Part shown: in pieces, positions 26,318-33,778 of the stretch | How the letters are laid out: every line of letters starts with the position of its first letter | Numbering within the stretch: the first letter of the stretch is position 1 | IMG/VR virus record: IMGVR_UViG_2531839450_000016 | Span: 1-33,778 of that record | DNA: 33,778 nucleotides | From: a virus | Taxonomy: Duplodnaviria; Heunggongvirae; Uroviricota; Caudoviricetes | Direction: 5' to 3' (one strand) | The notes under the pieces: generated by a model | The model's database searches: none | The model's input: the letters and a program-made list of their open reading frames with translations, nothing else | Told to the model about the DNA's origin: nothing | Program-made: the position numbers and the translations under genes

Positions 26318-28732
26318 TTAATACAGGTTCCGCCACTTATCATCTTCCTGCAAACGCTGGTTCCGATAGAAGATACGCAGGCCTGCTCCTGACGGAATAC
26401 TGCCTCCGCGAAGGAGTAAATCGACCTCTTTCTCGCTGCCATCAAATCCTCTGGACTTCAGCTCATACACGAGCTGCAGTCGCTGATGGTCTGTAATTCG
26501 CTGTTTGTAGTCTTTACGCCGTTTCGGTTTCACCAGGCGTAACCTTGCTGCCAGTTCCCGGCACTCTTTTTTGCTCATACTGTGCAGGTAATCGTGCAAC
26601 TCCTTGTCATCCATGCGGGTAATATCCGTTCTGGTGTCCCCATCAGCTGATTTATCTTTCTCCTGTTGGTTCAAATTTTCAGCAAGGGGACAGTTATTGC
26701 CACGAGTCCAAGGGGCGCAAGCGCCCTGGTCGGCTACCGCCTCCTGAACGTCAACGGCCTTACGAACCATTTTCCACTTCACTGCATGAGTGCAGATCTT
26801 GCCCTCTGAAATGGGTGACCAGATGCCATAAATACGAATACCGTGATCGCCATAGGCGGTCGGCTCTTCGTTGATTTCATAAGCGGTTCTGATGAGGTGA
26901 TATTTACGGGGAACCAGTACGCCGCCCTGCTTCATGATGTAGGAGGCAAAACAACCAGCATCAGCAGCAGCCAGGATGGCATCAAGGCGCGGGTTATCCA
27001 GTACCGGCGCACCTGCTTTTTTGTCCCCCTGTTGCCTTGCCGCCTGACCAGCCAGCAATCGCAGTTCACGGTAAGCCTGACGCCCCGGAATGCCAAAGAA
27101 GCGGAATTGCTGAACACGATGCAGAGACGCCCAGGCATTAACGTATTCAGCGTTATCACGCAGGGATTTACCCGTTTCCTTGCTGATCTCACCAGCCAGA
27201 CCACGCCCGTCAATGTTCTTACTGATGTATTTCGCGATGTAGCTTGTTGGCGTACCTTTGCGCGGGTTTATCAGCTCAGACTTAAAGCGTGGTCCCGTGT
27301 TATTACCCAGCTCCTCGCGGTCTTCACGAATGGCAAACTTACGCAACAAAGCAGTAATGGCTCGGCGATCTTTTTTGCGCATAAAACACAACAGGTGCCA
27401 GTGAACTGTACCGTCATGATGCGGCTCAGCCACCCGCACGCCATACCAGCGCAATCCGGCTTTGTGCATCGCTTTACGAAATGCAGCAAACATGCCGACC
27501 AGATAATCACTGCTTTGTCTTACCGTCGCGTTTGTCCAGGTCGGGTTTGGTCTGCCGTTATTTAGCGTGGAATGGAAACGTGACGGACAGGTGATGGTGT
27601 AGAAAACGGCGCAGTCACCGCGCATTTCCGCGATAAGCTCCAGACCTTTAACACAGGCCATCATCTCATTGCGGCGATGCGCAGGGTTGCTGCTGCTGGC
27701 GTTTACCACATCCTCCATGTCCAGCGTGTCGCCGTCTTCGTTCACCAGTTCATGAGAACGGAAAAACTCCAGCGACTTACGGCGCTGCTCACGTTTATGC
27801 AACACGGCTTCATAGCTGACATAGGGAGATACTTTTTTGCTGACAAGGCAGACAGCACGCAACTGCTCTTCCCGCCATTCGCAACGCATCTTCCATAATT
27901 TCCGATACCACCAGTCGGCGCATAACATACGCGCCAGCGAACCCGGAATGAGTTCATAAGGCACGGGTTTACGGCGGTTTCTTTTCCGACGGAGTTGCTC
28001 AAACGCAGGCGGGATAACATCCAGACGCAGGGTTTCCGCTGCCACCTTTTCCCATGTCTTGCGGATTTCTTCTGGCGTAACATCATCGGTGGCATACAAA
28101 TCGCCACAAGCTGTATCAAGGCACATGCTCATATGCGCAGCTACCAAGGTGGACAGGCGTTTCACCTGATCCTGACTCATTTCAGGCAGGATCAGCAGGC
28201 CGTCCAGCCCTTCATGGCTTGCCATAAAGCGAAAAGAAGTGGATAGCTGACTGTCGCGTACATGCTCCAGTCGTTCCAAGCATGGCTTAATCGTCTCACG
28301 CAAATAGCGGGAATAAGCCTTTGGCCTGCCCAGGCTGCTGAAGTATTTAATACGTTGCATCAGCGGCTTGCTGATATGGGAAGGCTGGGCGTTGACGTCC
28401 GCCAGAATGGCCATGTCTGGATTAAAACGCTGCTGCTCATGCGCCAGCTTTGCCCGGCTAATTAGCTTATCCTGCTCCATTTCGCGTTGGACAGGATCAC
28501 GGGATTCATTAAAGAAATAACGCTCCCAGACCTGATCACTCAGTGCCTCGCGGCGTAGTTGTTCCTGCTCGTTATCGGCAGCGTACAGAGTGATCAGGTT
28601 TGAAAGCGCAGAAACCGGCGCAACTTCCGCCGGGTCCAGATAAGGGTTAATGGCCTTTTTCGGGCTGTTCCATGAGAATGCTGCGGCGACCTCGTTAAAG
28701 CCGCTGCAGTTGTTCATATCAGCATGGCTCAT
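26318..28732 (-). CDS. A: Replication initiation endonuclease gpA (rolling-circle initiator)
   Basis: Large ORF with a His-rich motif ([14 protein letters not shown]) consistent with a rolling-circle Rep metal site; probable start ATG at 28730-28732, overlapping the Dam stop (ATGA). Confidence 0.9.
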
Positions 28733-29586
28733 GCACGCACTCCGTACACGACGGAACAATCCACGCCACGCGAAGGATCAAATCCTACCCAGCAGCGCGG
28801 CCCGGAAACAGCGATGATTTCTGTTGCTGATTTACTCTCACCAGCTGCTACGCCGATGCTGCGTTTTACCTTGATATAGTGGTGAGTAAAATTGCGATAC
28901 AGCGAACGGATCAGGGATGTGTCACTGTTAGAAACAATGACCGGATGTCCTTCTGATGACCGATGTTCAAGAACGGATGCCAGGTGATACTGGTCATCTT
29001 CAGTAAAGCCGTCAGCGTGATAGCCGGAAAACGTACCGTCATAAGGCGGATCGCAATACACCACATCCCCCGCCTTCAACATCGCCAGCGTTTCATCAAA
29101 GCTGGCGCAGATAAACGTTGCTCGCTGGGCTTTTTCTGCAAAAGCGCGAATTTCTTTTTCAGGGAAATACGGATTTTTATAATTACCGTAGGGAATGTTG
29201 AAATGCCCGCTCTTGTTATAGCGACATAACCCACGGTAACCGTGACGATTGAGATACAGGAAATATACCGCTTTCATGAAATCAGTAATTTCAGTTGAGT
29301 AATTAAACTCCTGCCTTATGTTGTAATAAGCCACCTCCCTGTTTGCGATCTCAAATAAAACTTTGGCGCGAGATATAAACAATTCACAATCAGCGGCAAC
29401 CTTTTTATAGAGGTTGATTAAATCAGGATTAATATCCGCAACCAGATAGCAGGGATAATCCGTCTCCATCATCACAGCACAGGAACCCGCGAAAGGTTCA
29501 ACTAGTCGCGGACCAGCAGGAAGATGTTTTTTCAGTTCGGACATTACGGCGGTTTTATTTCCCGCCCATTTCAGGATGGTGCTCAT
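28729..29586 (-). CDS. dam: DNA adenine methyltransferase (Dam family)
   Basis: From the internal Met: [11 protein letters not shown]... (the N-terminal motif typical of Dam) and DPPY catalytic motif (VYCDPPYDG); start ATG overlaps the stop of the TraR-like frame (ATGA). Confidence 0.85.
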
Positions 29587-29808
29587 ACAGCACCTCCGTT
29601 GTAATGTTTGCCTTTCAGCTCTGCGATTTCCTGACAGGTAATGCAAAGCTGCACCCGGAATGGCACGGCGGCGTGCTGGCGGAATTGGCGCTTCACACTC
29701 AACGCAAAGCACGCGGGACACGCCCGGCGTTTTGGCACGGGCAGCACGGATATGGCGCTGGCGTTCTTCTTCAACGCGCTGCTGTACGAGATCCATTGCA
29801 TCAGCCAT
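29583..29808 (-). CDS. TraR/DksA-like C4 zinc-finger protein, apparently frameshifted in this sequence
   Basis: The N-terminal half in one frame (..LCVECEAPIPPARRRAIPG) and the C-terminal half in the +1 frame (..QLCITCQEIAELKGKHY..) together match the TraR pattern C-x2-C-x17-C-x2-C; the frames switch near 29650-29660 at a CCC/GG run. Confidence 0.5.
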
Positions 29809-30871: not shown

Positions 30872-31387
30872 TCACAGCAAACCAAATGAAGCACCGAGGC
30901 CAGTCACGGTATCAACTGCACTCGCCATCGCAGGGTTAGCCTGTAAACGGGCCTGCAATGAAACAGCAGCCAACGCCATCAGTCGTGTTACAGAGTTAAT
31001 GCTGCTGATAGCATCACGACGGCCTGCACTGGTTTTTACATCGCCAGATGCCGCACCTGCAGCAACACGCCCGATCTCTGCGGTTGCACTCATGACGTAA
31101 TGTGGCAGTTTCTCTTTTGCCACCTCATTAATCGGTACACATGGCAGGCAGTGAATCTGAGCCAGAAAACCATCTACTAGCGTTGAATCTTCAGTCAGAT
31201 CGGTAAGCAACCAGATTTCTGGTGCGGTTAATAAATGAGGTTGAGCTGGGTTCAGCTTGTTCCGCAGAATCTGCACATTCATGCCTGCACGTTCTGCCAG
31301 TTGCACCAGGTTGTGGCGCAGTGCGAATGCACGACAGGCTTCATCAAAATGTGGATGTTTGGAAACTTGGTAATCAAACATAGTCAA
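30872..31387 (-). CDS. B: Replication protein gpB
   Basis: 171-aa ORF downstream of the apl/cox-like gene in the early operon; P2/186 synteny. Confidence 0.75.
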
Positions 31388-31413
31388 TGCCTCTGATGTA
31401 TTTCAGAATCGAA

Positions 31414-31635
31414 CTAATTAAGGTTTAGATTGCATTCTGAAAGCGCATCAACGGTCATGGCTGCTATGTTGATCATCACTTTTTCGCGTTTTTTATCTTT
31501 GCGCAAACGGTGACGGATAAGGCGTCCATCAGCCAACATGTCATTGATAGTATCGATGGACAGCCCTGTCAGCTCGCTATAGCGTTCAATAGTCACATGA
31601 GGCGTGGTAAGAGTGATTGAAATGTTAGGTCTCAT
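31414..31635 (-). CDS. Apl/Cox-like excisionase and early-promoter regulator (small HTH protein)
   Basis: 73-aa first gene of the early operon, divergent from cI; HTH-like segment YSELTGLSIDTINDMLADGRL. Confidence 0.6.
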   Translation of the reverse strand: MRPNISITLTTPHVTIERYSELTGLSIDTINDMLADGRLIRHRLRKDKKREKVMINIAAMTVDALSECNLNLN

Positions 31636-31760
31636 GATGCAACATTCCTCGTTTAATGATGATTAATCAGGACGAATACGGATCGTTTGTATTTTGTGAA
31701 CACCATAAACATACGATCGCACAGTGAAATCGTCAAGACAAAAGTTCACTTGGAGTGACC

Positions 31761-32330
31761 ATGAATTTGGAGAAAGGCGGACGAGGCGCTATAGAGCGCA
31801 TGGTAGAAGCTTATGGATTCAAGACTCGACAGGCGTTGTGCGATCATTTAGGAATCTCTAAAAGTACACTCGCCACACGCTACATGCGTGACTCATTCCC
31901 AGCAGAATGGGTAATCCAGTGCGCCCTTGAAACAGGCACTTCGCTTAATTGGCTCACAACCGGGCATGGTTCAAAGCAAACTTCAGGTAATACAAATACT
32001 ATGGAAGTTGCTAAATATGTATTATCTGATGGGGCTTTGTGTGAAGACGGTTTTTATATTTTCGATAGAGAATTTCTACCGTCGGCATTCAAGAATCTTT
32101 TTGTAATCACAGATAATAATTCTGAATTTATTTGTGATAAGGAATTTGATGATATACGTGATGGTAAATGGGTAATAAGTATTGATGGCGAAATAACGAT
32201 CCGTGACATTACTCGTTTACCCGGTGGAAGAATCTTCGTCGAGGGTGGAAACAGAGCCTTCGAATGTAAGATAGAAGACATTGAAATAATTGGTAAAATT
32301 ATAAGTTTAACAGTCAAGTATGTTAAATAG
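31761..32330 (+). CDS. cI: 186-type CI immunity repressor
   Basis: About 189 aa from the ATG at 31761 (GGAG ribosome-binding site); N-terminal ...EAYGF...HLGISKSTLATRY...CALETG..L.WL.TG resembles phage 186 CI as I recall it; divergent from the apl-like gene. Confidence 0.75.
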   Translation: MNLEKGGRGAIERMVEAYGFKTRQALCDHLGISKSTLATRYMRDSFPAEWVIQCALETGTSLNWLTTGHGSKQTSGNTNTMEVAKYVLSDGALCEDGFYIFDREFLPSAFKNLFVITDNNSEFICDKEFDDIRDGKWVISIDGEITIRDITRLPGGRIFVEGGNRAFECKIEDIEIIGKIISLTVKYVK

Positions 32331-32345
32331 TACCGGGAGGAAACT

Positions 32346-32537
32346 ATGCTTGGTAAGGTATTTTTTGTGGTTTTATCATGTTCTTTGTTATTAAACCCAC
32401 TAACTACCTATGCTAGAAATTATCCCTGCTCAGGGAAAAAGGGAGGTGTTTCTCACTGTACCTCAGATGGCAAATTCGTTTGCAATGATGGAACTATTAG
32501 TAAATCCAAAAAAATCTGTACTAAAAACTCACGATAA
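32346..32537 (+). CDS. Small secreted Cys-rich basic peptide (accessory gene between cI and int)
   Basis: 63-aa ORF with a strong GGGAGG ribosome-binding site; signal peptide [23 protein letters not shown]; mature part of about 40 aa has four Cys and many Lys; AT-rich. Confidence 0.55.
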
Positions 32538-32725
32538 CTTTTGCTTTTATATCTGCGTCTAAAATAAAAATGAGCCGCAGGTTAACCGCAAAAGTTACAT
32601 GCTCACATAGCAAAAAGAATAGCCAACTTCATTATGGCTTCAGTGAGATGTATGGTCGTAGGATTTCATACATTGACACTGGTTATACATACAGTAAAAA
32701 TGCTCTCTACTGGAGGGCATTTTTT

Positions 32726-33778
32726 ATGGCAGTACGAAAACTCACCACAGGGAAATGGCTTTGCGAATGTTACCCCGCCGGACGAAGTGGGCGTCGTGTG
32801 CGTAAACAATTCGCCACCAAAGGCGAAGCTCTGGCTTTTGAGCGTCACACTATGGAAGAAACCGAATCAAAGCCATGGCTGGGCGAATCAGTGGATCGTC
32901 GAACCCTGAAAGACGTGGTTGAGCTATGGTTCAAACTACATGGTAAATCTCTGACTGCTGGGCAGCATGTCTATGACAAATTGCTGCTGATGGTTGGCGC
33001 TCTGGGCAATCCTCTTGCAACCGATCTCACCTCTAAAATGTTTGCCCACTATCGAGATAAACGCCTGACAGGCGAGATCTACTTCAGCGAGAAATGGAAG
33101 AAAGGAGCAAGCCCGGTCACCATTAACCTGGAGCAAAGCTATCTAAGTAGTGTTTTTAGCGAACTATCCCGTCTGGGCGAATGGTCGTATCCGAACCCAC
33201 TGGAGAACATGCGAAAATTCACCATCGCAGAAAAAGAGATGGCATGGCTTACCCATGAGCAGATTGTTGAATTACTGGCTGATTGCAAACGTCAGGACCC
33301 AATTCTAGCACTGGTAGTTAAGATATGCTTAAGCACAGGCGCACGCTGGCGAGAAGCCGTAAATCTTACTCGTTCACAGGTGACCAAATACCGAATTACC
33401 TTTGTAAGAACGAAGGGGAAGAAAAACAGAAGTATCCCTATCAGTAAAGAGCTTTACGAAGAGATCATGGCGCTTGATGGATTCAATTTCTTCACAGACT
33501 GCTATTTTCAATTTTTATCCGTGATGGAAAAAACGTCTATCGTGCTCCCTCGCGGTCAACTCACACACGTTCTGCGCCATACGTTTGCGGCGCACTTCAT
33601 GATGTCGGGTGGAAACATTCTGGCCTTACAAAAAATTCTCGGACACCACGATATAAAAATGACTATGCGTTACGCACATCTGGCACCGGATCATCTGGAA
33701 ACGGCGCTCCGTTTCAATCCTCTGGCAACGCTGCCAAGTGGCGACAAAGTGGCGGCAGCGGTTGGCATTACCCCGTAA
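32726..33778 (+). CDS. int: Tyrosine integrase (P2/186 family)
   Basis: From the internal Met MAVRKLTTGKW...; C-terminal catalytic region ...THVLRHTFAAHFMMSGGNILALQKILGHHDIKMTMRYAHLAP (Arg-His-x-x-Arg ... Tyr); the 3' end contains the att core repeat. Confidence 0.9.
   Translation: MAVRKLTTGKWLCECYPAGRSGRRVRKQFATKGEALAFERHTMEETESKPWLGESVDRRTLKDVVELWFKLHGKSLTAGQHVYDKLLLMVGALGNPLATDLTSKMFAHYRDKRLTGEIYFSEKWKKGASPVTINLEQSYLSSVFSELSRLGEWSYPNPLENMRKFTIAEKEMAWLTHEQIVELLADCKRQDPILALVVKICLSTGARWREAVNLTRSQVTKYRITFVRTKGKKNRSIPISKELYEEIMALDGFNFFTDCYFQFLSVMEKTSIVLPRGQLTHVLRHTFAAHFMMSGGNILALQKILGHHDIKMTMRYAHLAPDHLETALRFNPLATLPSGDKVAAAVGITP
33739..33760. repeat. Prophage attachment-site core copy (right end), direct repeat of 214-235
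   Basis: TGGCGACAAAGTGGCGGCAGCG inside the last codons of int. Confidence 0.6.

What the first reader, a model, noticed from the sequence alone, without database searches (positions are those of the whole stretch)
32346..32537. Small secreted, Cys-rich, lysine-rich peptide encoded between cI and int
A 63-aa ORF with a strong ribosome-binding site, a typical signal peptide and a mature part of about 40 aa containing four Cys and many Lys is inserted in the lysogeny operon between the repressor and integrase genes. It is visibly more AT-rich than its neighbours and should be expressed in the prophage state together with cI and int. It could be a lysogenic-conversion factor such as a toxin-like, bacteriocin-like or envelope-acting peptide.
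Basis: partly seen in the sequence, partly recalled or inferred. Interest (0 to 1): 0.5.

Follow-up and report, generated by a model that had tools for sequence, protein, structure and literature searches.

The report
Prophage-encoded periplasmic YdcA-family mini-protein
The small gene between the repressor and integrase genes of this P2/186-like prophage is real and strongly conserved, and it encodes an exported, lysine-rich, four-cysteine mini-protein of the already catalogued but uncharacterised YdcA family, which probably acts in the periplasm of the lysogen rather than as a toxin or bacteriocin.

Summary
Window 32346-32537 (+) is a 63-aa ORF with a GGGAGG ribosome-binding site. It has a Sec-type signal peptide and a 40-aa mature part (4 Cys, 7 Lys, 2 Arg, pI 9.7). 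It lies 15 nt after cI and 188 nt before int.

It is not new as an entity. It passes NCBIfam NF007463 and RefSeq calls it "YdcA family protein". About 626 of 5,426 complete E. coli genomes carry it.

It is under strong purifying selection. Against BL21, the 34 mature-domain codons show 8 synonymous and 0 non-synonymous changes.

- **Placement.** YdcA-family genes recur directly downstream of phage repressor genes, including an unannotated one in Haemophilus phage HP2. In sibling prophages the cI-int interval also carries KAP NTPases or other ATPases.
- **Fusions.** The domain is fused or adjacent to secreted nucleases of three unrelated folds.
- **Structure.** The only solved relative is a lobe of Legionella Dis2, an outer-membrane-proximal Dot/Icm type IV secretion component (TM 0.69, 1.7 Å).

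My best inference is a lysogen-expressed periplasmic polycation that binds DNA or an outer-membrane-proximal structure and hinders entry of foreign DNA. Nothing supports a toxin or bacteriocin. Function remains untested.

The parts
31755..32330 (+). cI repressor gene (186/HP1-type). It is the first gene of the lysogenic operon. RefSeq starts it at the ATG at 31761.
   Evidence: PF07022 E 2.8e-33 and PF16452 E 2.7e-27. RefSeq annotates it as 'phage repressor protein CI' in identical prophages.
32335..32340 (+). Shine-Dalgarno sequence GGGAGG, 5 nt upstream of the ATG
   Evidence: Read directly from the sequence.
32346..32414 (+). Signal peptide (23 codons, [23 protein letters not shown]). The predicted signal peptidase I cut is after Ala23.
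   Evidence: The hydrophobic core has mean KD +2.86. Ala23 is invariant while the leader is otherwise divergent. The leader has dN 0.79 against 0.025 for the mature part. The cleavage site is predicted, not measured.
32415..32537 (+). Mature YdcA-family domain (40 aa, 4 Cys, 7 Lys, 2 Arg) plus the stop codon
   Evidence: NF007463 at 115.8 bits against a cutoff of 93. phrog_6000 at E 1.9e-34. Precomputed PF27300 on the 98%-identical cluster. AF2 model with pLDDT 84. Foldseek top hit is Dis2, chain 7muc_AN, with TM 0.69 and rmsd 1.7 Å.
32538..32725 (+). AT-rich spacer between the ORF and int. No plus-strand terminator-like site was found. Homology with prophages of other immunity types begins at 32648-32668.
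   Evidence: GC 0.367. Terminator scan. Int-only matches start at query positions 1249 or 1269, which is window 32648 or 32668.
32673..32701 (+). Promoter-like site (TTGACA, 17 nt, AAAAAT; 10 of 12 matches) upstream of int. This is a consensus match only.
   Evidence: The number of such sites in the region equals the shuffle expectation, so the match is weak evidence.
32726..33778 (+). Tyrosine integrase gene, the last gene of the lysogenic operon. The window ends at its stop codon.
   Evidence: PF24624 E 8.3e-32 and PF00589 E 7.2e-22. It is 96% identical in DNA to the integrases of Klebsiella and Escherichia Peduoviridae phages.
31414..31635 (-). Divergently transcribed Apl/Cox-like gene. It marks the switch region and shows that cI, the ORF and int form the lysogenic arm.
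   Evidence: phrog_575 'Cox-like excisionase and repressor', E 6.1e-31.

Best explanation
The ORF encodes a YdcA-family mini-protein.

**Shown**
- It is a real gene under strong purifying selection.
- It has a Sec-type leader followed by a 36-40 aa domain with four invariant Cys and conserved Lys ([12 protein letters not shown]...FVCNDGxxSKSKKxC).
- Its predicted fold is a small beta-hairpin unit that superposes on one lobe of Legionella Dis2.
- It sits directly after cI in the lysogenic arm, and this arrangement recurs in several diverged phage lineages.

**Inferred**
- It is co-transcribed with cI and int from the lysogenic promoter.
- It is exported by Sec, cleaved after Ala23 and oxidised to two disulfides in the periplasm.
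- There it acts as a soluble polycation that binds a polyanionic or outer-membrane-proximal target.

**Candidate targets**
- The favoured target is nucleic acid. The same domain is fused or adjacent to secreted nucleases of three unrelated folds, and its positive charge is conserved.
- The alternative target is an outer-membrane-proximal lipoprotein assembly, as seen for Dis2.

**Proposed role**
The most likely role for the prophage is to hinder entry of foreign DNA through the periplasm. That could mean superinfecting phage genomes and, in other hosts, transforming or conjugative DNA. This would make it a superinfection or entry-exclusion factor analogous to Glo, the soluble periplasmic exclusion protein of Vibrio phage K139, which lies in the same cI-int interval.
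For: **Family membership**
- NF007463 at 115.8 bits against a cutoff of 93.
- Precomputed PF27300 on the 98%-identical cluster.
- RefSeq annotation as 'YdcA family protein'.

**Selection**
- 8 synonymous and 0 non-synonymous changes against BL21.
- 11 and 1 against NC101.
- 21 and 2 against a 69%-identical homologue, while the leader diverges freely.
- 80 of 80 IMG/VR loci carry an intact ORF.
- The ORF is kept intact in the BL21 prophage remnant, where cII and the replication gene are pseudogenes.

**Placement after a repressor**
- This window, with a 15-nt gap and no terminator-like site.
- A second E. coli/Citrobacter immunity type ordered cI, YdcA, KAP NTPase, int.
- HP2, where an unannotated 60-aa ORF overlaps the cI stop codon.
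- IMG/VR lineages with CI_repr + CI_C, CI_repr + Peptidase_S24 or XRE-HTH upstream.

**The interval is a cargo or defence slot**
- Sibling prophages carry a KAP NTPase, a 558-aa ATPase or a 324-aa protein there.
- The HP2 neighbour orf1(S) matches phrog_8545 'Sie-like'.
- PMC9122126 describes a defence hotspot between cI and int of K139-like phages.
- K139 glo at that position is annotated as a periplasmic protein involved in phage exclusion (PMC3952083).

**Nucleic-acid link**
- Among 58 family members of at least 100 aa, Pfam-identifiable partners were Endonuclease_NS (3), SNase (1), PLDc_2 (1), PBCV_basic_adap (2), VasL (1) and DUF4124 (1). A further Endonuclease_NS fusion is P0217.
- In Legionella a YdcA gene overlaps an SNase gene.
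- 97% of 286 domains carry a net positive charge, with a mean of +3.5.
- K32 and K55 are invariant in the first alignment.

**Envelope link**
- The Foldseek top hit is Dis2, chain 7muc_AN, with TM 0.69, rmsd 1.7 Å, 42% identity and probability 0.97. All other hits are noise.
- hhalign against Dis2 lobe 1 gives probability 94.8% and P 5e-8.
- Six Dis2 orthologues carry a precomputed PF27300 hit.
- Dis2 lies next to the outer membrane and contacts DotK, DotC and DotD (PMC8486379, PMC12716638).

**Precedent**
- Mobile elements are known to use periplasmic DNases (IdeA, Dns) against incoming DNA (PMC12378983).
Against: - No experiment addresses this protein. Export, cleavage, disulfides, co-transcription, DNA binding and exclusion are all inferred.
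- It has no homology to Glo (E 0.16) or to any PADLOC defence model.
- Dis2 is not basic and contacts proteins, not DNA, so the shared fold does not imply DNA binding.
- Fusion to a nuclease could equally reflect anchoring near the outer membrane.
- The only published phenotypes for a family member are unrelated to phage. E. coli W delta-ydcA is sensitive to 300 mM 3-hydroxypropionate, and ydcA is induced at pH 5 (PMC7642389).
- Phage genomes are normally shielded by the tail channel while crossing the periplasm, which makes a simple DNA-trap mechanism uncertain.
- In some phages the gene is not next to a repressor: a Moraxella phage late region and a Mu-like prophage after mor.
- In NC101-type prophages the gene co-exists with a KAP NTPase instead of replacing it. 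It therefore behaves as a constant partner of cI rather than as interchangeable defence cargo.
Confidence: 0.4

Rival explanations
1. Host-fitness (lysogenic conversion) factor. The periplasmic protein stabilises or modifies the envelope and improves tolerance to weak organic acids or low pH, duplicating or boosting the role of chromosomal YdcA. It would have no effect on foreign DNA.
For: - The only experimental data for the family point this way. E. coli W delta-ydcA grows poorly with 300 mM 3-hydroxypropionate, and ydcA is reported to be up-regulated at pH 5 through YdcI (PMC7642389).
- The Dis2 relative sits at the periplasmic face of the outer membrane and contacts lipoproteins (PMC12716638).
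- The family includes chromosomal genes with no mobile-element context.
- The gene is kept intact in the decayed BL21 prophage, as expected if it benefits the host.
Against: - This reading does not explain the repeated fusion and adjacency to nucleases.
- It does not explain the recurrent placement behind phage repressors in a known defence or cargo interval (PMC9122126).
- The 3-HP phenotype comes from a single study at an extreme concentration, and deletion of yieP abolished it.
Confidence: 0.27
2. Adaptor or anchor for another periplasmic protein or envelope-spanning machine. The free domain docks onto outer-membrane-proximal lipoproteins, secretins or a host nuclease such as endonuclease I. 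It would modulate that partner's activity or location, for example by blocking a phage receptor or injection route through protein-protein contact rather than DNA binding.
For: [quoted passage not shown]
- One family member is fused to the T6SS component VasL.
- A YdcA-like gene lies beside mobilisation genes on a 3.9-kb MOBQ plasmid.
- An operon with an overlapping SNase gene in Legionella could reflect a nuclease partner.
Against: - No partner is encoded next to it in this prophage.
- The conserved lysines (K31, K32, K55, K56) are absent from Dis2. This suggests a ligand specific to the YdcA branch rather than the Dis2 type of contact.
- Deleting Dis2 has little structural or functional effect (PMC12716638), so the paradigm itself is weak.
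Confidence: 0.2
3. Secreted antimicrobial peptide, bacteriocin or toxin that harms competitors or host cells.
For: It is small, cationic, disulfide-rich and carries a secretion leader. These are generic features of many antimicrobial peptides.
Against: - No immunity, maturation or dedicated export gene is adjacent. The neighbours are cI and int.
- A Sec leader delivers the protein only to the periplasm in a diderm.
- The family occurs as a core-like chromosomal gene, as tandem repeats and as N-terminal modules of nucleases.
- Its structural relative is a structural subunit.
- There were no matches to toxin or bacteriocin families in Pfam, NCBIfam or PHROGs.
Confidence: 0.04
4. Non-functional or spurious ORF carried along with the immunity region.
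For: None, beyond its small size and lack of a known function.
Against: - The synonymous to non-synonymous counts are 8:0, 11:1 and 21:2 in the mature domain.
- The family is conserved across Gamma- and Betaproteobacteria: 456 clusters at 50% identity and 1,217 at 90%.
- It passes curated family models.
Confidence: 0.01

Closest known systems
E. coli K-12 YdcA (b1419) and the YdcA family (Pfam PF27300; NCBIfam PRK10040 / NF007462-NF007464)
   Same: It has the same architecture: a Sec leader followed by a domain of about 35 aa with four Cys and the motifs PCSG.KGG, FVCNDG and S.SKK. It scores above the curated cutoff of NF007463, and RefSeq names identical copies 'YdcA family protein'.
   Different: It belongs to the NF007463 sub-branch, not the K-12 equivalog NF007462 (68.5 bits against a cutoff of 118). 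It is prophage-borne in the lysogenic operon rather than chromosomal next to rydC/cybB. It is more basic than the family mean (+6.8 against +3.5). The family itself has no established function.
Legionella pneumophila Dis2 (Lpg0823), a Dot/Icm type IVB secretion outer-membrane-cap subunit (PDB 7MUC/7MUD chain AN)
   Same: One Dis2 lobe and the mature domain share the fold (TM 0.69, rmsd 1.7 Å over 36 columns, 42% identity). They also share the motif C-S-x-x-GG-[IV]-x-x-C...G-x-[FL]-VCN-[DN]-G-x-x-S. Both are exported, disulfide-stabilised and periplasmic.
   Different: Dis2 has two lobes pinned by five disulfides and is not basic. It is a stoichiometric part of a T4SS, contacting DotK, DotC and DotD. 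The prophage protein is a single, highly basic lobe with no T4SS nearby. The literature describes Dis2 as Legionella-specific with no homologues (PMC12716638).
Glo of Vibrio cholerae phage K139
   Same: It is encoded between cI and int of a P2-related (Peduoviridae) phage in the lysogenic operon. It is a soluble periplasmic protein with a signal peptide and is reported to take part in phage exclusion (PMC3952083; PMC4870250).
   Different: There is no sequence similarity (E 0.16). Glo is 137 aa and not Cys- or Lys-rich. Exclusion has been shown for Glo only.
Other prophage or plasmid exclusion proteins acting outside the cytoplasm: T4 Imm/Sp, HK97 gp15, P22 SieA, TP-J34 Ltp, IncP TrbK (from my own knowledge plus PMC3952083)
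   Same: They are small envelope-located products of mobile elements, expressed in the carrier cell, that block entry of incoming DNA.
   Different: Most are membrane-anchored or lipoproteins. None shares sequence or fold with YdcA. The lipobox reading of this ORF was tested and rejected.
Periplasmic DNases encoded on mobile elements that block incoming DNA (IdeA/SxnA of Vibrio ICEs; Dns of the Campylobacter Mu-like prophage CJIE1)
   Same: They are periplasmic products of mobile elements directed at DNA entering the cell (PMC12378983). Some YdcA domains are fused to the same enzyme classes, Endonuclease_NS and SNase.
   Different: The window protein has no catalytic domain. At most it could bind DNA, not cut it.

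Membership tests
YdcA family (NCBIfam NF007463 / PRK10040.1-2; Pfam PF27300) | Whole-protein score above the curated cutoff of the family model | tested here: met
   NF007463 scores 115.8 bits against a cutoff of 93, over residues 5-63 and profile positions 1-58 of 58. The 98%-identical cluster representative carries a precomputed PF27300 hit. PF27300 is absent from the local Pfam copy, so it could not be scored directly.
YdcA family (NCBIfam NF007463 / PRK10040.1-2; Pfam PF27300) | N-terminal Sec signal peptide followed by a domain of about 35 aa with four conserved Cys and the motifs PCSG.KGG, FVCNDG and S.SKK | tested here: met
   Alignments A1, A3 and A4 show C28, C38, C46 and S52 as invariant. 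P27, S29, K32, G33, G34, F44, G49, S54, K55 and C58 are at least 90% conserved.
YdcA family, K-12 equivalog (NF007462) | Score above the equivalog cutoff | tested here: not met
   68.5 bits against a cutoff of 118. It is a paralogous sub-branch, not the K-12 ydcA orthologue.
PHROG phrog_6000 (phage protein family of unknown function) | Full-length profile match | tested here: met
   E 1.9e-34, residues 3-59 against profile positions 1-56 of 56.
Dis2-like (Legionella Dot/Icm OMC subunit) | Shared fold and sequence motif of one lobe | tested here: met
   Foldseek gives TM 0.69, rmsd 1.7 Å and probability 0.97. hhalign gives 94.8% probability. A domain-only HMM against PDB sequences is not significant on its own (E 0.1).
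Dis2-like (Legionella Dot/Icm OMC subunit) | Two-lobe architecture with five disulfides and association with a T4SS | tested here: not met
   The window protein has a single lobe with four Cys. No T4SS genes lie next to it.
Periplasmic superinfection-exclusion protein of P2-related phages (K139 Glo type) | Encoded between cI and int in the lysogenic operon | tested here: met
   for the window; for K139.
Periplasmic superinfection-exclusion protein of P2-related phages (K139 Glo type) | Sequence homology to Glo | tested here: not met
   BLASTP E 0.16.
Periplasmic superinfection-exclusion protein of P2-related phages (K139 Glo type) | Reduces infection by superinfecting phage | not testable with these tools
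   Needs efficiency-of-plating assays with deletion and expression strains.
Known anti-phage defence systems (PADLOC-DB) | Match to any defence protein model | tested here: not met
   0 families at E <= 10.
Bacteriocin / secreted antimicrobial peptide locus | Adjacent immunity, maturation or dedicated export genes | tested here: not met
   The only neighbours are cI and int. The same three-gene arrangement is seen in RefSeq genomes.
Bacterial lipoprotein | Conserved lipobox with Cys at +1, preceded by an adequate n/h-region | tested here: not met
   The VLSC motif with Cys12 is too close to the N-terminus. Cys12 is absent from most homologues, whereas Ala23 at -1 is invariant.
Periplasmic DNA-binding proteins (functional class) | Direct binding to DNA | not testable with these tools
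   There is only indirect support: nuclease fusions and adjacency and a conserved positive charge. No known DNA-binding Pfam domain was detected.

The most novel reading that the evidence does not exclude
YdcA-family proteins are a widespread, unrecognised class of periplasmic DNA-binding 'gatekeepers' encoded by mobile elements. Prophages (behind their repressor genes), small mobilisable plasmids and chromosomes would use a 36-residue disulfide-locked polycation to intercept DNA crossing the periplasm. That DNA could be a phage genome, transforming DNA or conjugative DNA. The domain would act alone or as the targeting module of secreted nucleases. Legionella Dis2 would be a duplicated, neutralised derivative recruited into the Dot/Icm machine. 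The prominence of the family in phages of naturally competent genera (Haemophilus, Moraxella, Acinetobacter, Legionella) would then reflect inhibition of transformation, protecting the element from being cured.
Probability: 0.15. Interest if true: 0.7.

Novelty: new member of a known kind. Interest (0 to 1): 0.38.

Why it matters
The gene is carried by roughly one in nine complete E. coli genomes, including the laboratory strain BL21. Its family spans Gamma- and Betaproteobacteria, their phages and their plasmids, yet no function is known for any member, including the K-12 y-gene ydcA.

Three leads found here make the family experimentally approachable:
- It is repeatedly placed behind phage repressor genes, inside an interval known to hold defence cargo.
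- It is repeatedly fused or adjacent to secreted nucleases of unrelated folds.
- It shares a fold with a lobe of Dis2, a Dot/Icm component that the literature treats as Legionella-specific and without homologues.

If the exclusion or DNA-binding idea holds, this would add a very small, nuclease-free periplasmic barrier to the catalogue of prophage-encoded protection. It would also give a functional handle on Dis2. If it fails, the result is still a well-defined periplasmic mini-domain of unknown role. As an entity the gene is already catalogued, so its novelty is modest.

Tried and rejected
- **Local Pfam scan of the ORF and of the mature peptide.** It gave only GULLO2-like_3rd (E 0.075 and 0.021, far below the gathering score), which I treat as chance. 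PF27300 is not in the local copy.
- **PADLOC.** No hit.
- **Profile against PDB sequences.** The E 4.6e-5 hit to Dis2 depended partly on signal-peptide similarity. With a domain-only profile it fell to E 0.1, level with LDL-receptor class A repeats, lysozyme and hepsin. I treat those other hits as chance Cys-pattern matches. I accepted the Dis2 link only after hhalign without leaders, the structural superposition and PF27300 hits on some Dis2 orthologues.
- **lpg1681_fam (E 0.11).** Not pursued.
- **'ydcA' in plasmid pS88 and in the gonococcal genetic island.** This is a name clash with a putative DNA methylase and is unrelated.
- **Homology to K139 Glo.** Rejected.
- **Lipoprotein reading.** The VLSC motif was rejected as a lipobox.
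- **Rfam scan of 31300-33000.** Only a sub-threshold Phe_leader hit (22 bits against 55), treated as chance.
- **Terminator between the ORF and int.** None found on the + strand.
- **Promoter-like sites.** Their number equals the shuffle expectation, so I make no claim of a separate int promoter.
- **Nesper et al. 1999 on K139 Glo.** The paper could not be read. Its content is cited second-hand from PMC3952083 and from the K139 GenBank annotation.
- **Gene context of four further chromosomal family members.** No common theme emerged.
- **Neighbourhood of one nuclease fusion.** It includes a SIR2_2 protein, but the contig is too short to interpret.
Full report
**1. The observation**

The window ends in the control region of a P2/186-like (Peduoviridae) prophage.
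- On the minus strand lie a CII-family gene (30872-31387) and an Apl/Cox-like gene (31414-31635).
- On the plus strand lie cI (31755-32330; PF07022 + PF16452), the flagged ORF (32346-32537) and a tyrosine integrase (32726-33778).

The ORF is exactly as described.
- It has an ATG start and 63 codons. GGGAGG lies 5 nt upstream.
- The leader has a short basic n-region and a strongly hydrophobic core (mean KD +2.86). It ends in TYA before RN.
- The mature part is 40 residues with 4 Cys, 7 Lys, 2 Arg, net charge +6.8 and pI 9.7.
- The low GC is real: 0.349 against 0.505 for the window. However, the tract starts inside cI (3' half, GC 0.336) and continues through the spacer (GC 0.367). It is a property of the whole distal immunity module, not of an inserted gene.

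**2. It is a real, selected gene**

Against the copy in E. coli BL21, the 34 core codons of the mature domain differ at 8 synonymous and 0 non-synonymous positions. Against NC101 the counts are 11 and 1.

Against a 69%-identical homologue in a second immunity type, synonymous sites are saturated (21 of 21.5), with only 2 amino-acid changes. The signal peptide in that comparison has diverged almost completely (dN 0.79). This pattern is what a cleaved leader plus a constrained mature protein would produce.

All 80 best IMG/VR loci have an intact ORF, with only three protein variants.

In E. coli complete genomes, the ORF is present at >=80% coverage in 626 of 5,426 genomes. The matching cI is present in 651. 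BL21 keeps cI, the ORF and int intact in a prophage remnant whose cII and replication genes are pseudogenes.

**3. What it is**

The protein matches phrog_6000 (E 1.9e-34) and NCBIfam NF007463 above its curated cutoff (115.8 against 93 bits). Near-identical database proteins carry PF27300 and the name 'YdcA family protein'. As an entity it is therefore already catalogued.

The family comprises 456 clusters at 50% identity and 1,217 at 90% identity. It spans Enterobacterales, Moraxellaceae, Pasteurellaceae, Legionella, Betaproteobacteria and others.

The mature motif [10 protein letters not shown][IV][11 protein letters not shown][ST]xSxSKKxC is nearly invariant, and 97% of 286 domains are net positive.

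The literature describes K-12 YdcA only as a 57-aa predicted periplasmic protein of unknown function (bioRxiv 10.1101/2024.02.12.579971). One study reports a 3-hydroxypropionate-sensitive deletion phenotype and acid induction (PMC7642389). The 'ydcA' of F-like plasmids and of the gonococcal island is an unrelated methylase.

**4. Genomic placement**

Prophages sharing this integrase and integration site (next to rcdA/ybjJ) differ in what lies between cI and int.
- This ORF alone (this window).
- This ORF plus a KAP NTPase (NC101, and a second immunity type in Escherichia/Citrobacter).
- A KAP NTPase alone (E. coli W).
- A 324-aa protein.
- A 558-aa ATPase.

Homology with int-only relatives begins at window 32648-32668.

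Rousset et al. describe a defence hotspot between cI and int in K139-like Vibrio phages (PMC9122126). A 2026 preprint lists integrase-proximal minor hotspots in P2-like prophages (10.64898/2026.02.27.708500). K139 itself carries glo at that position, annotated as a periplasmic protein involved in phage exclusion (PMC3952083).

The YdcA gene, however, behaves less like interchangeable cargo than like a companion of the repressor.
- It follows a 187-aa cI in the second E. coli type.
- An unannotated 60-aa homologue starts on the last base of the cI stop codon in Haemophilus phages HP2 and S2. It is followed by a secreted protein matching a 'Sie-like' PHROG and then int.
- In IMG/VR contigs seeded from HP2, 13 of 42 distinct upstream neighbours are CI-type repressors and 6 match another regulator PHROG. 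These include CI_repr + CI_C, CI_repr + Peptidase_S24 and XRE-HTH proteins.

Other placements exist. They include a Moraxella phage late region, a Mu-like prophage after mor, Acinetobacter plasmids including a 3.9-kb MOBQ plasmid, and plain chromosomal sites.

**5. Clues to molecular activity**

*(a) Domain fusions.* Among 58 family members of at least 100 aa, the Pfam-identifiable partners were:
- Endonuclease_NS (3)
- SNase (1)
- PLD/Nuc-like PLDc_2 (1)
- PBCV basic adaptor (2)
- T6SS VasL (1)
- DUF4124 (1)

Others are tandem repeats of two or three domains. A further Endonuclease_NS fusion appears in the precomputed annotations (P0217). In each nuclease fusion read (P0106, P0159, P0174, P0203), the YdcA domain sits directly after the leader and is joined to the enzyme by a low-complexity linker.

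*(b) Gene adjacency.* In Legionella a stand-alone YdcA gene overlaps an SNase gene by 26 nt. Three unrelated nuclease folds sharing one small basic module points to nucleic-acid binding, or alternatively to a common anchoring site.

*(c) Structure.* AlphaFold models are confident for the mature part (pLDDT 84). They show a short turn and a beta-hairpin.
- Foldseek against the PDB returns only one meaningful hit, chain AN of 7MUC/7MUD. It has TM 0.69, rmsd 1.7 Å over 36 columns, 42% identity and probability 0.97.
- That chain is Dis2 (Lpg0823). Dis2 is a two-lobed, five-disulfide protein of the Dot/Icm outer-membrane cap. It lies near the outer membrane and contacts DotK, DotC and DotD. It is described as having no structural or sequence relatives (PMC8486379, PMC12716638).
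- I recovered 38 Dis2 orthologues. Profile-profile alignment without leaders gives 94.8% probability for lobe 1 and 88% for lobe 2.
- Six Dis2 orthologues already carry a precomputed PF27300 hit.
- A domain-only HMM against PDB sequences is not significant by itself (E 0.1). The link therefore rests on the combined evidence.
- Dis2 lacks the conserved lysines, so the basic surface is specific to the YdcA branch.

**6. Most likely mechanism**

*Shown:* the gene is real, it belongs to the YdcA family, it has a leader-plus-constrained-domain architecture, its placement is as described, and the fusions and the fold relationship exist.

*Inferred:* transcription with cI from the lysogenic promoter (15-nt gap, own ribosome-binding site, no terminator-like site), Sec export, cleavage after Ala23, two disulfides, and residence in the periplasm.

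*Favoured function (confidence about 0.4):* a soluble periplasmic polycation that binds DNA, or an outer-membrane-proximal structure, and so hinders entry of foreign DNA. It would be a functional analogue of K139 Glo and conceptually close to the periplasmic DNases that mobile elements use against incoming DNA (PMC12378983).

*Main rivals:*
- An envelope or stress-tolerance fitness factor. This is supported by the only experimental phenotype in the family.
- A protein-protein adaptor for envelope machines, which is the Dis2 paradigm.

A toxin or bacteriocin role is unlikely. A spurious ORF is excluded.

**7. Novelty and verdict**

The gene and its family are already in RefSeq, Pfam, NCBIfam and PHROGs. 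Prophage genes for periplasmic proteins in the lysogenic operon are a known kind.

To my knowledge three connections are not yet described:
- the recurrent repressor linkage, including the unannotated HP2 gene;
- the nuclease association;
- the homology to Dis2.

They turn an anonymous y-gene family into a testable one. Interest is moderate at 0.38. The functional claim is inference only.

Noticed in passing
window ~29654 (within ORF 28729-29808, minus strand): The TraR/DksA-family zinc-finger gene has a 2-bp deletion (GT) relative to the otherwise identical gene in L016. This shifts the frame so that its N-terminal part reads through into the Dam-type methyltransferase gene as one 359-aa ORF. 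The normal C-terminus (…[21 protein letters not shown]) survives in another frame (29583-29801). It is either a pseudogene or a sequencing error.
   Followed up: partly
   Followed up: yes
L001 3112-3876 (HP2 orf1(S)) and relatives L140, L144, L146: The secreted 254-aa protein that follows the YdcA-like ORF in HP2-type phages matches phrog_8545, annotated 'superinfection exclusion Sie-like' (E 8.6e-9).
   Followed up: no
L020-L057 (Legionella dis2 loci); PDB 7MUC/7MUD chain AN: Each lobe of Dis2 (Lpg0823) of the Dot/Icm T4SS appears homologous to the YdcA domain. The literature describes Dis2 as Legionella-specific and without homologues. A few Dis2 orthologues already carry a precomputed PF27300 hit.
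   Followed up: yes
L008, L009, L016-L019, L006, L007 (sibling prophages at the rcdA/ybjJ site): The cI-int interval is a variable cargo slot. It holds a KAP-family P-loop NTPase (with or without the YdcA gene), a 324-aa hypothetical protein, or a 558-aa 'chromosome segregation ATPase'-like protein.
   Followed up: partly
L011 5001-5751 and L012 752-1502 (Legionella sp.): A 93-aa YdcA-family gene overlaps a staphylococcal-nuclease-like (SNase) gene by 26 nt, apparently in one operon. The region also encodes DUF927 and NYN-domain proteins.
   Followed up: no
L058 (Acinetobacter pittii plasmid pApiMCR53a, 3,916 bp), 728-904: A YdcA-family gene is one of only five genes on a tiny MOBQ mobilisable plasmid. 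It lies directly after a small 'TraD' gene. Many other Acinetobacter plasmids and 17 Rhizobium plasmids also carry family members.
   Followed up: no
L005 (E. coli BL21, NZ_CP060121.1 839648-845504): BL21 carries a decayed copy of this prophage. The cII and replication genes are annotated pseudogenes, yet cI, the YdcA-family ORF and int remain intact.
   Followed up: partly
window 32001-32725: A continuous low-GC tract (0.34-0.37 against 0.505 for the window) covers the C-terminal half of cI, the ORF and the spacer. It ends near the point (32648-32668) where homology to prophages of other immunity types begins. This suggests the distal immunity module is exchanged as a unit.
   Followed up: partly
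L222 4001-4210 (Mu-like prophage in a Pseudomonadota MAG): A YdcA-family gene lies between the mor-like regulator gene and the lysis genes of a transposable (Mu/B3-like) prophage. This is a different moron position from the repressor-linked one.
   Followed up: no
window 32346-32537 against NCBIfam NF052673: There is a weak match (E 0.11) to the lpg1681 family, another small Legionella protein. It was not examined further.
   Followed up: no
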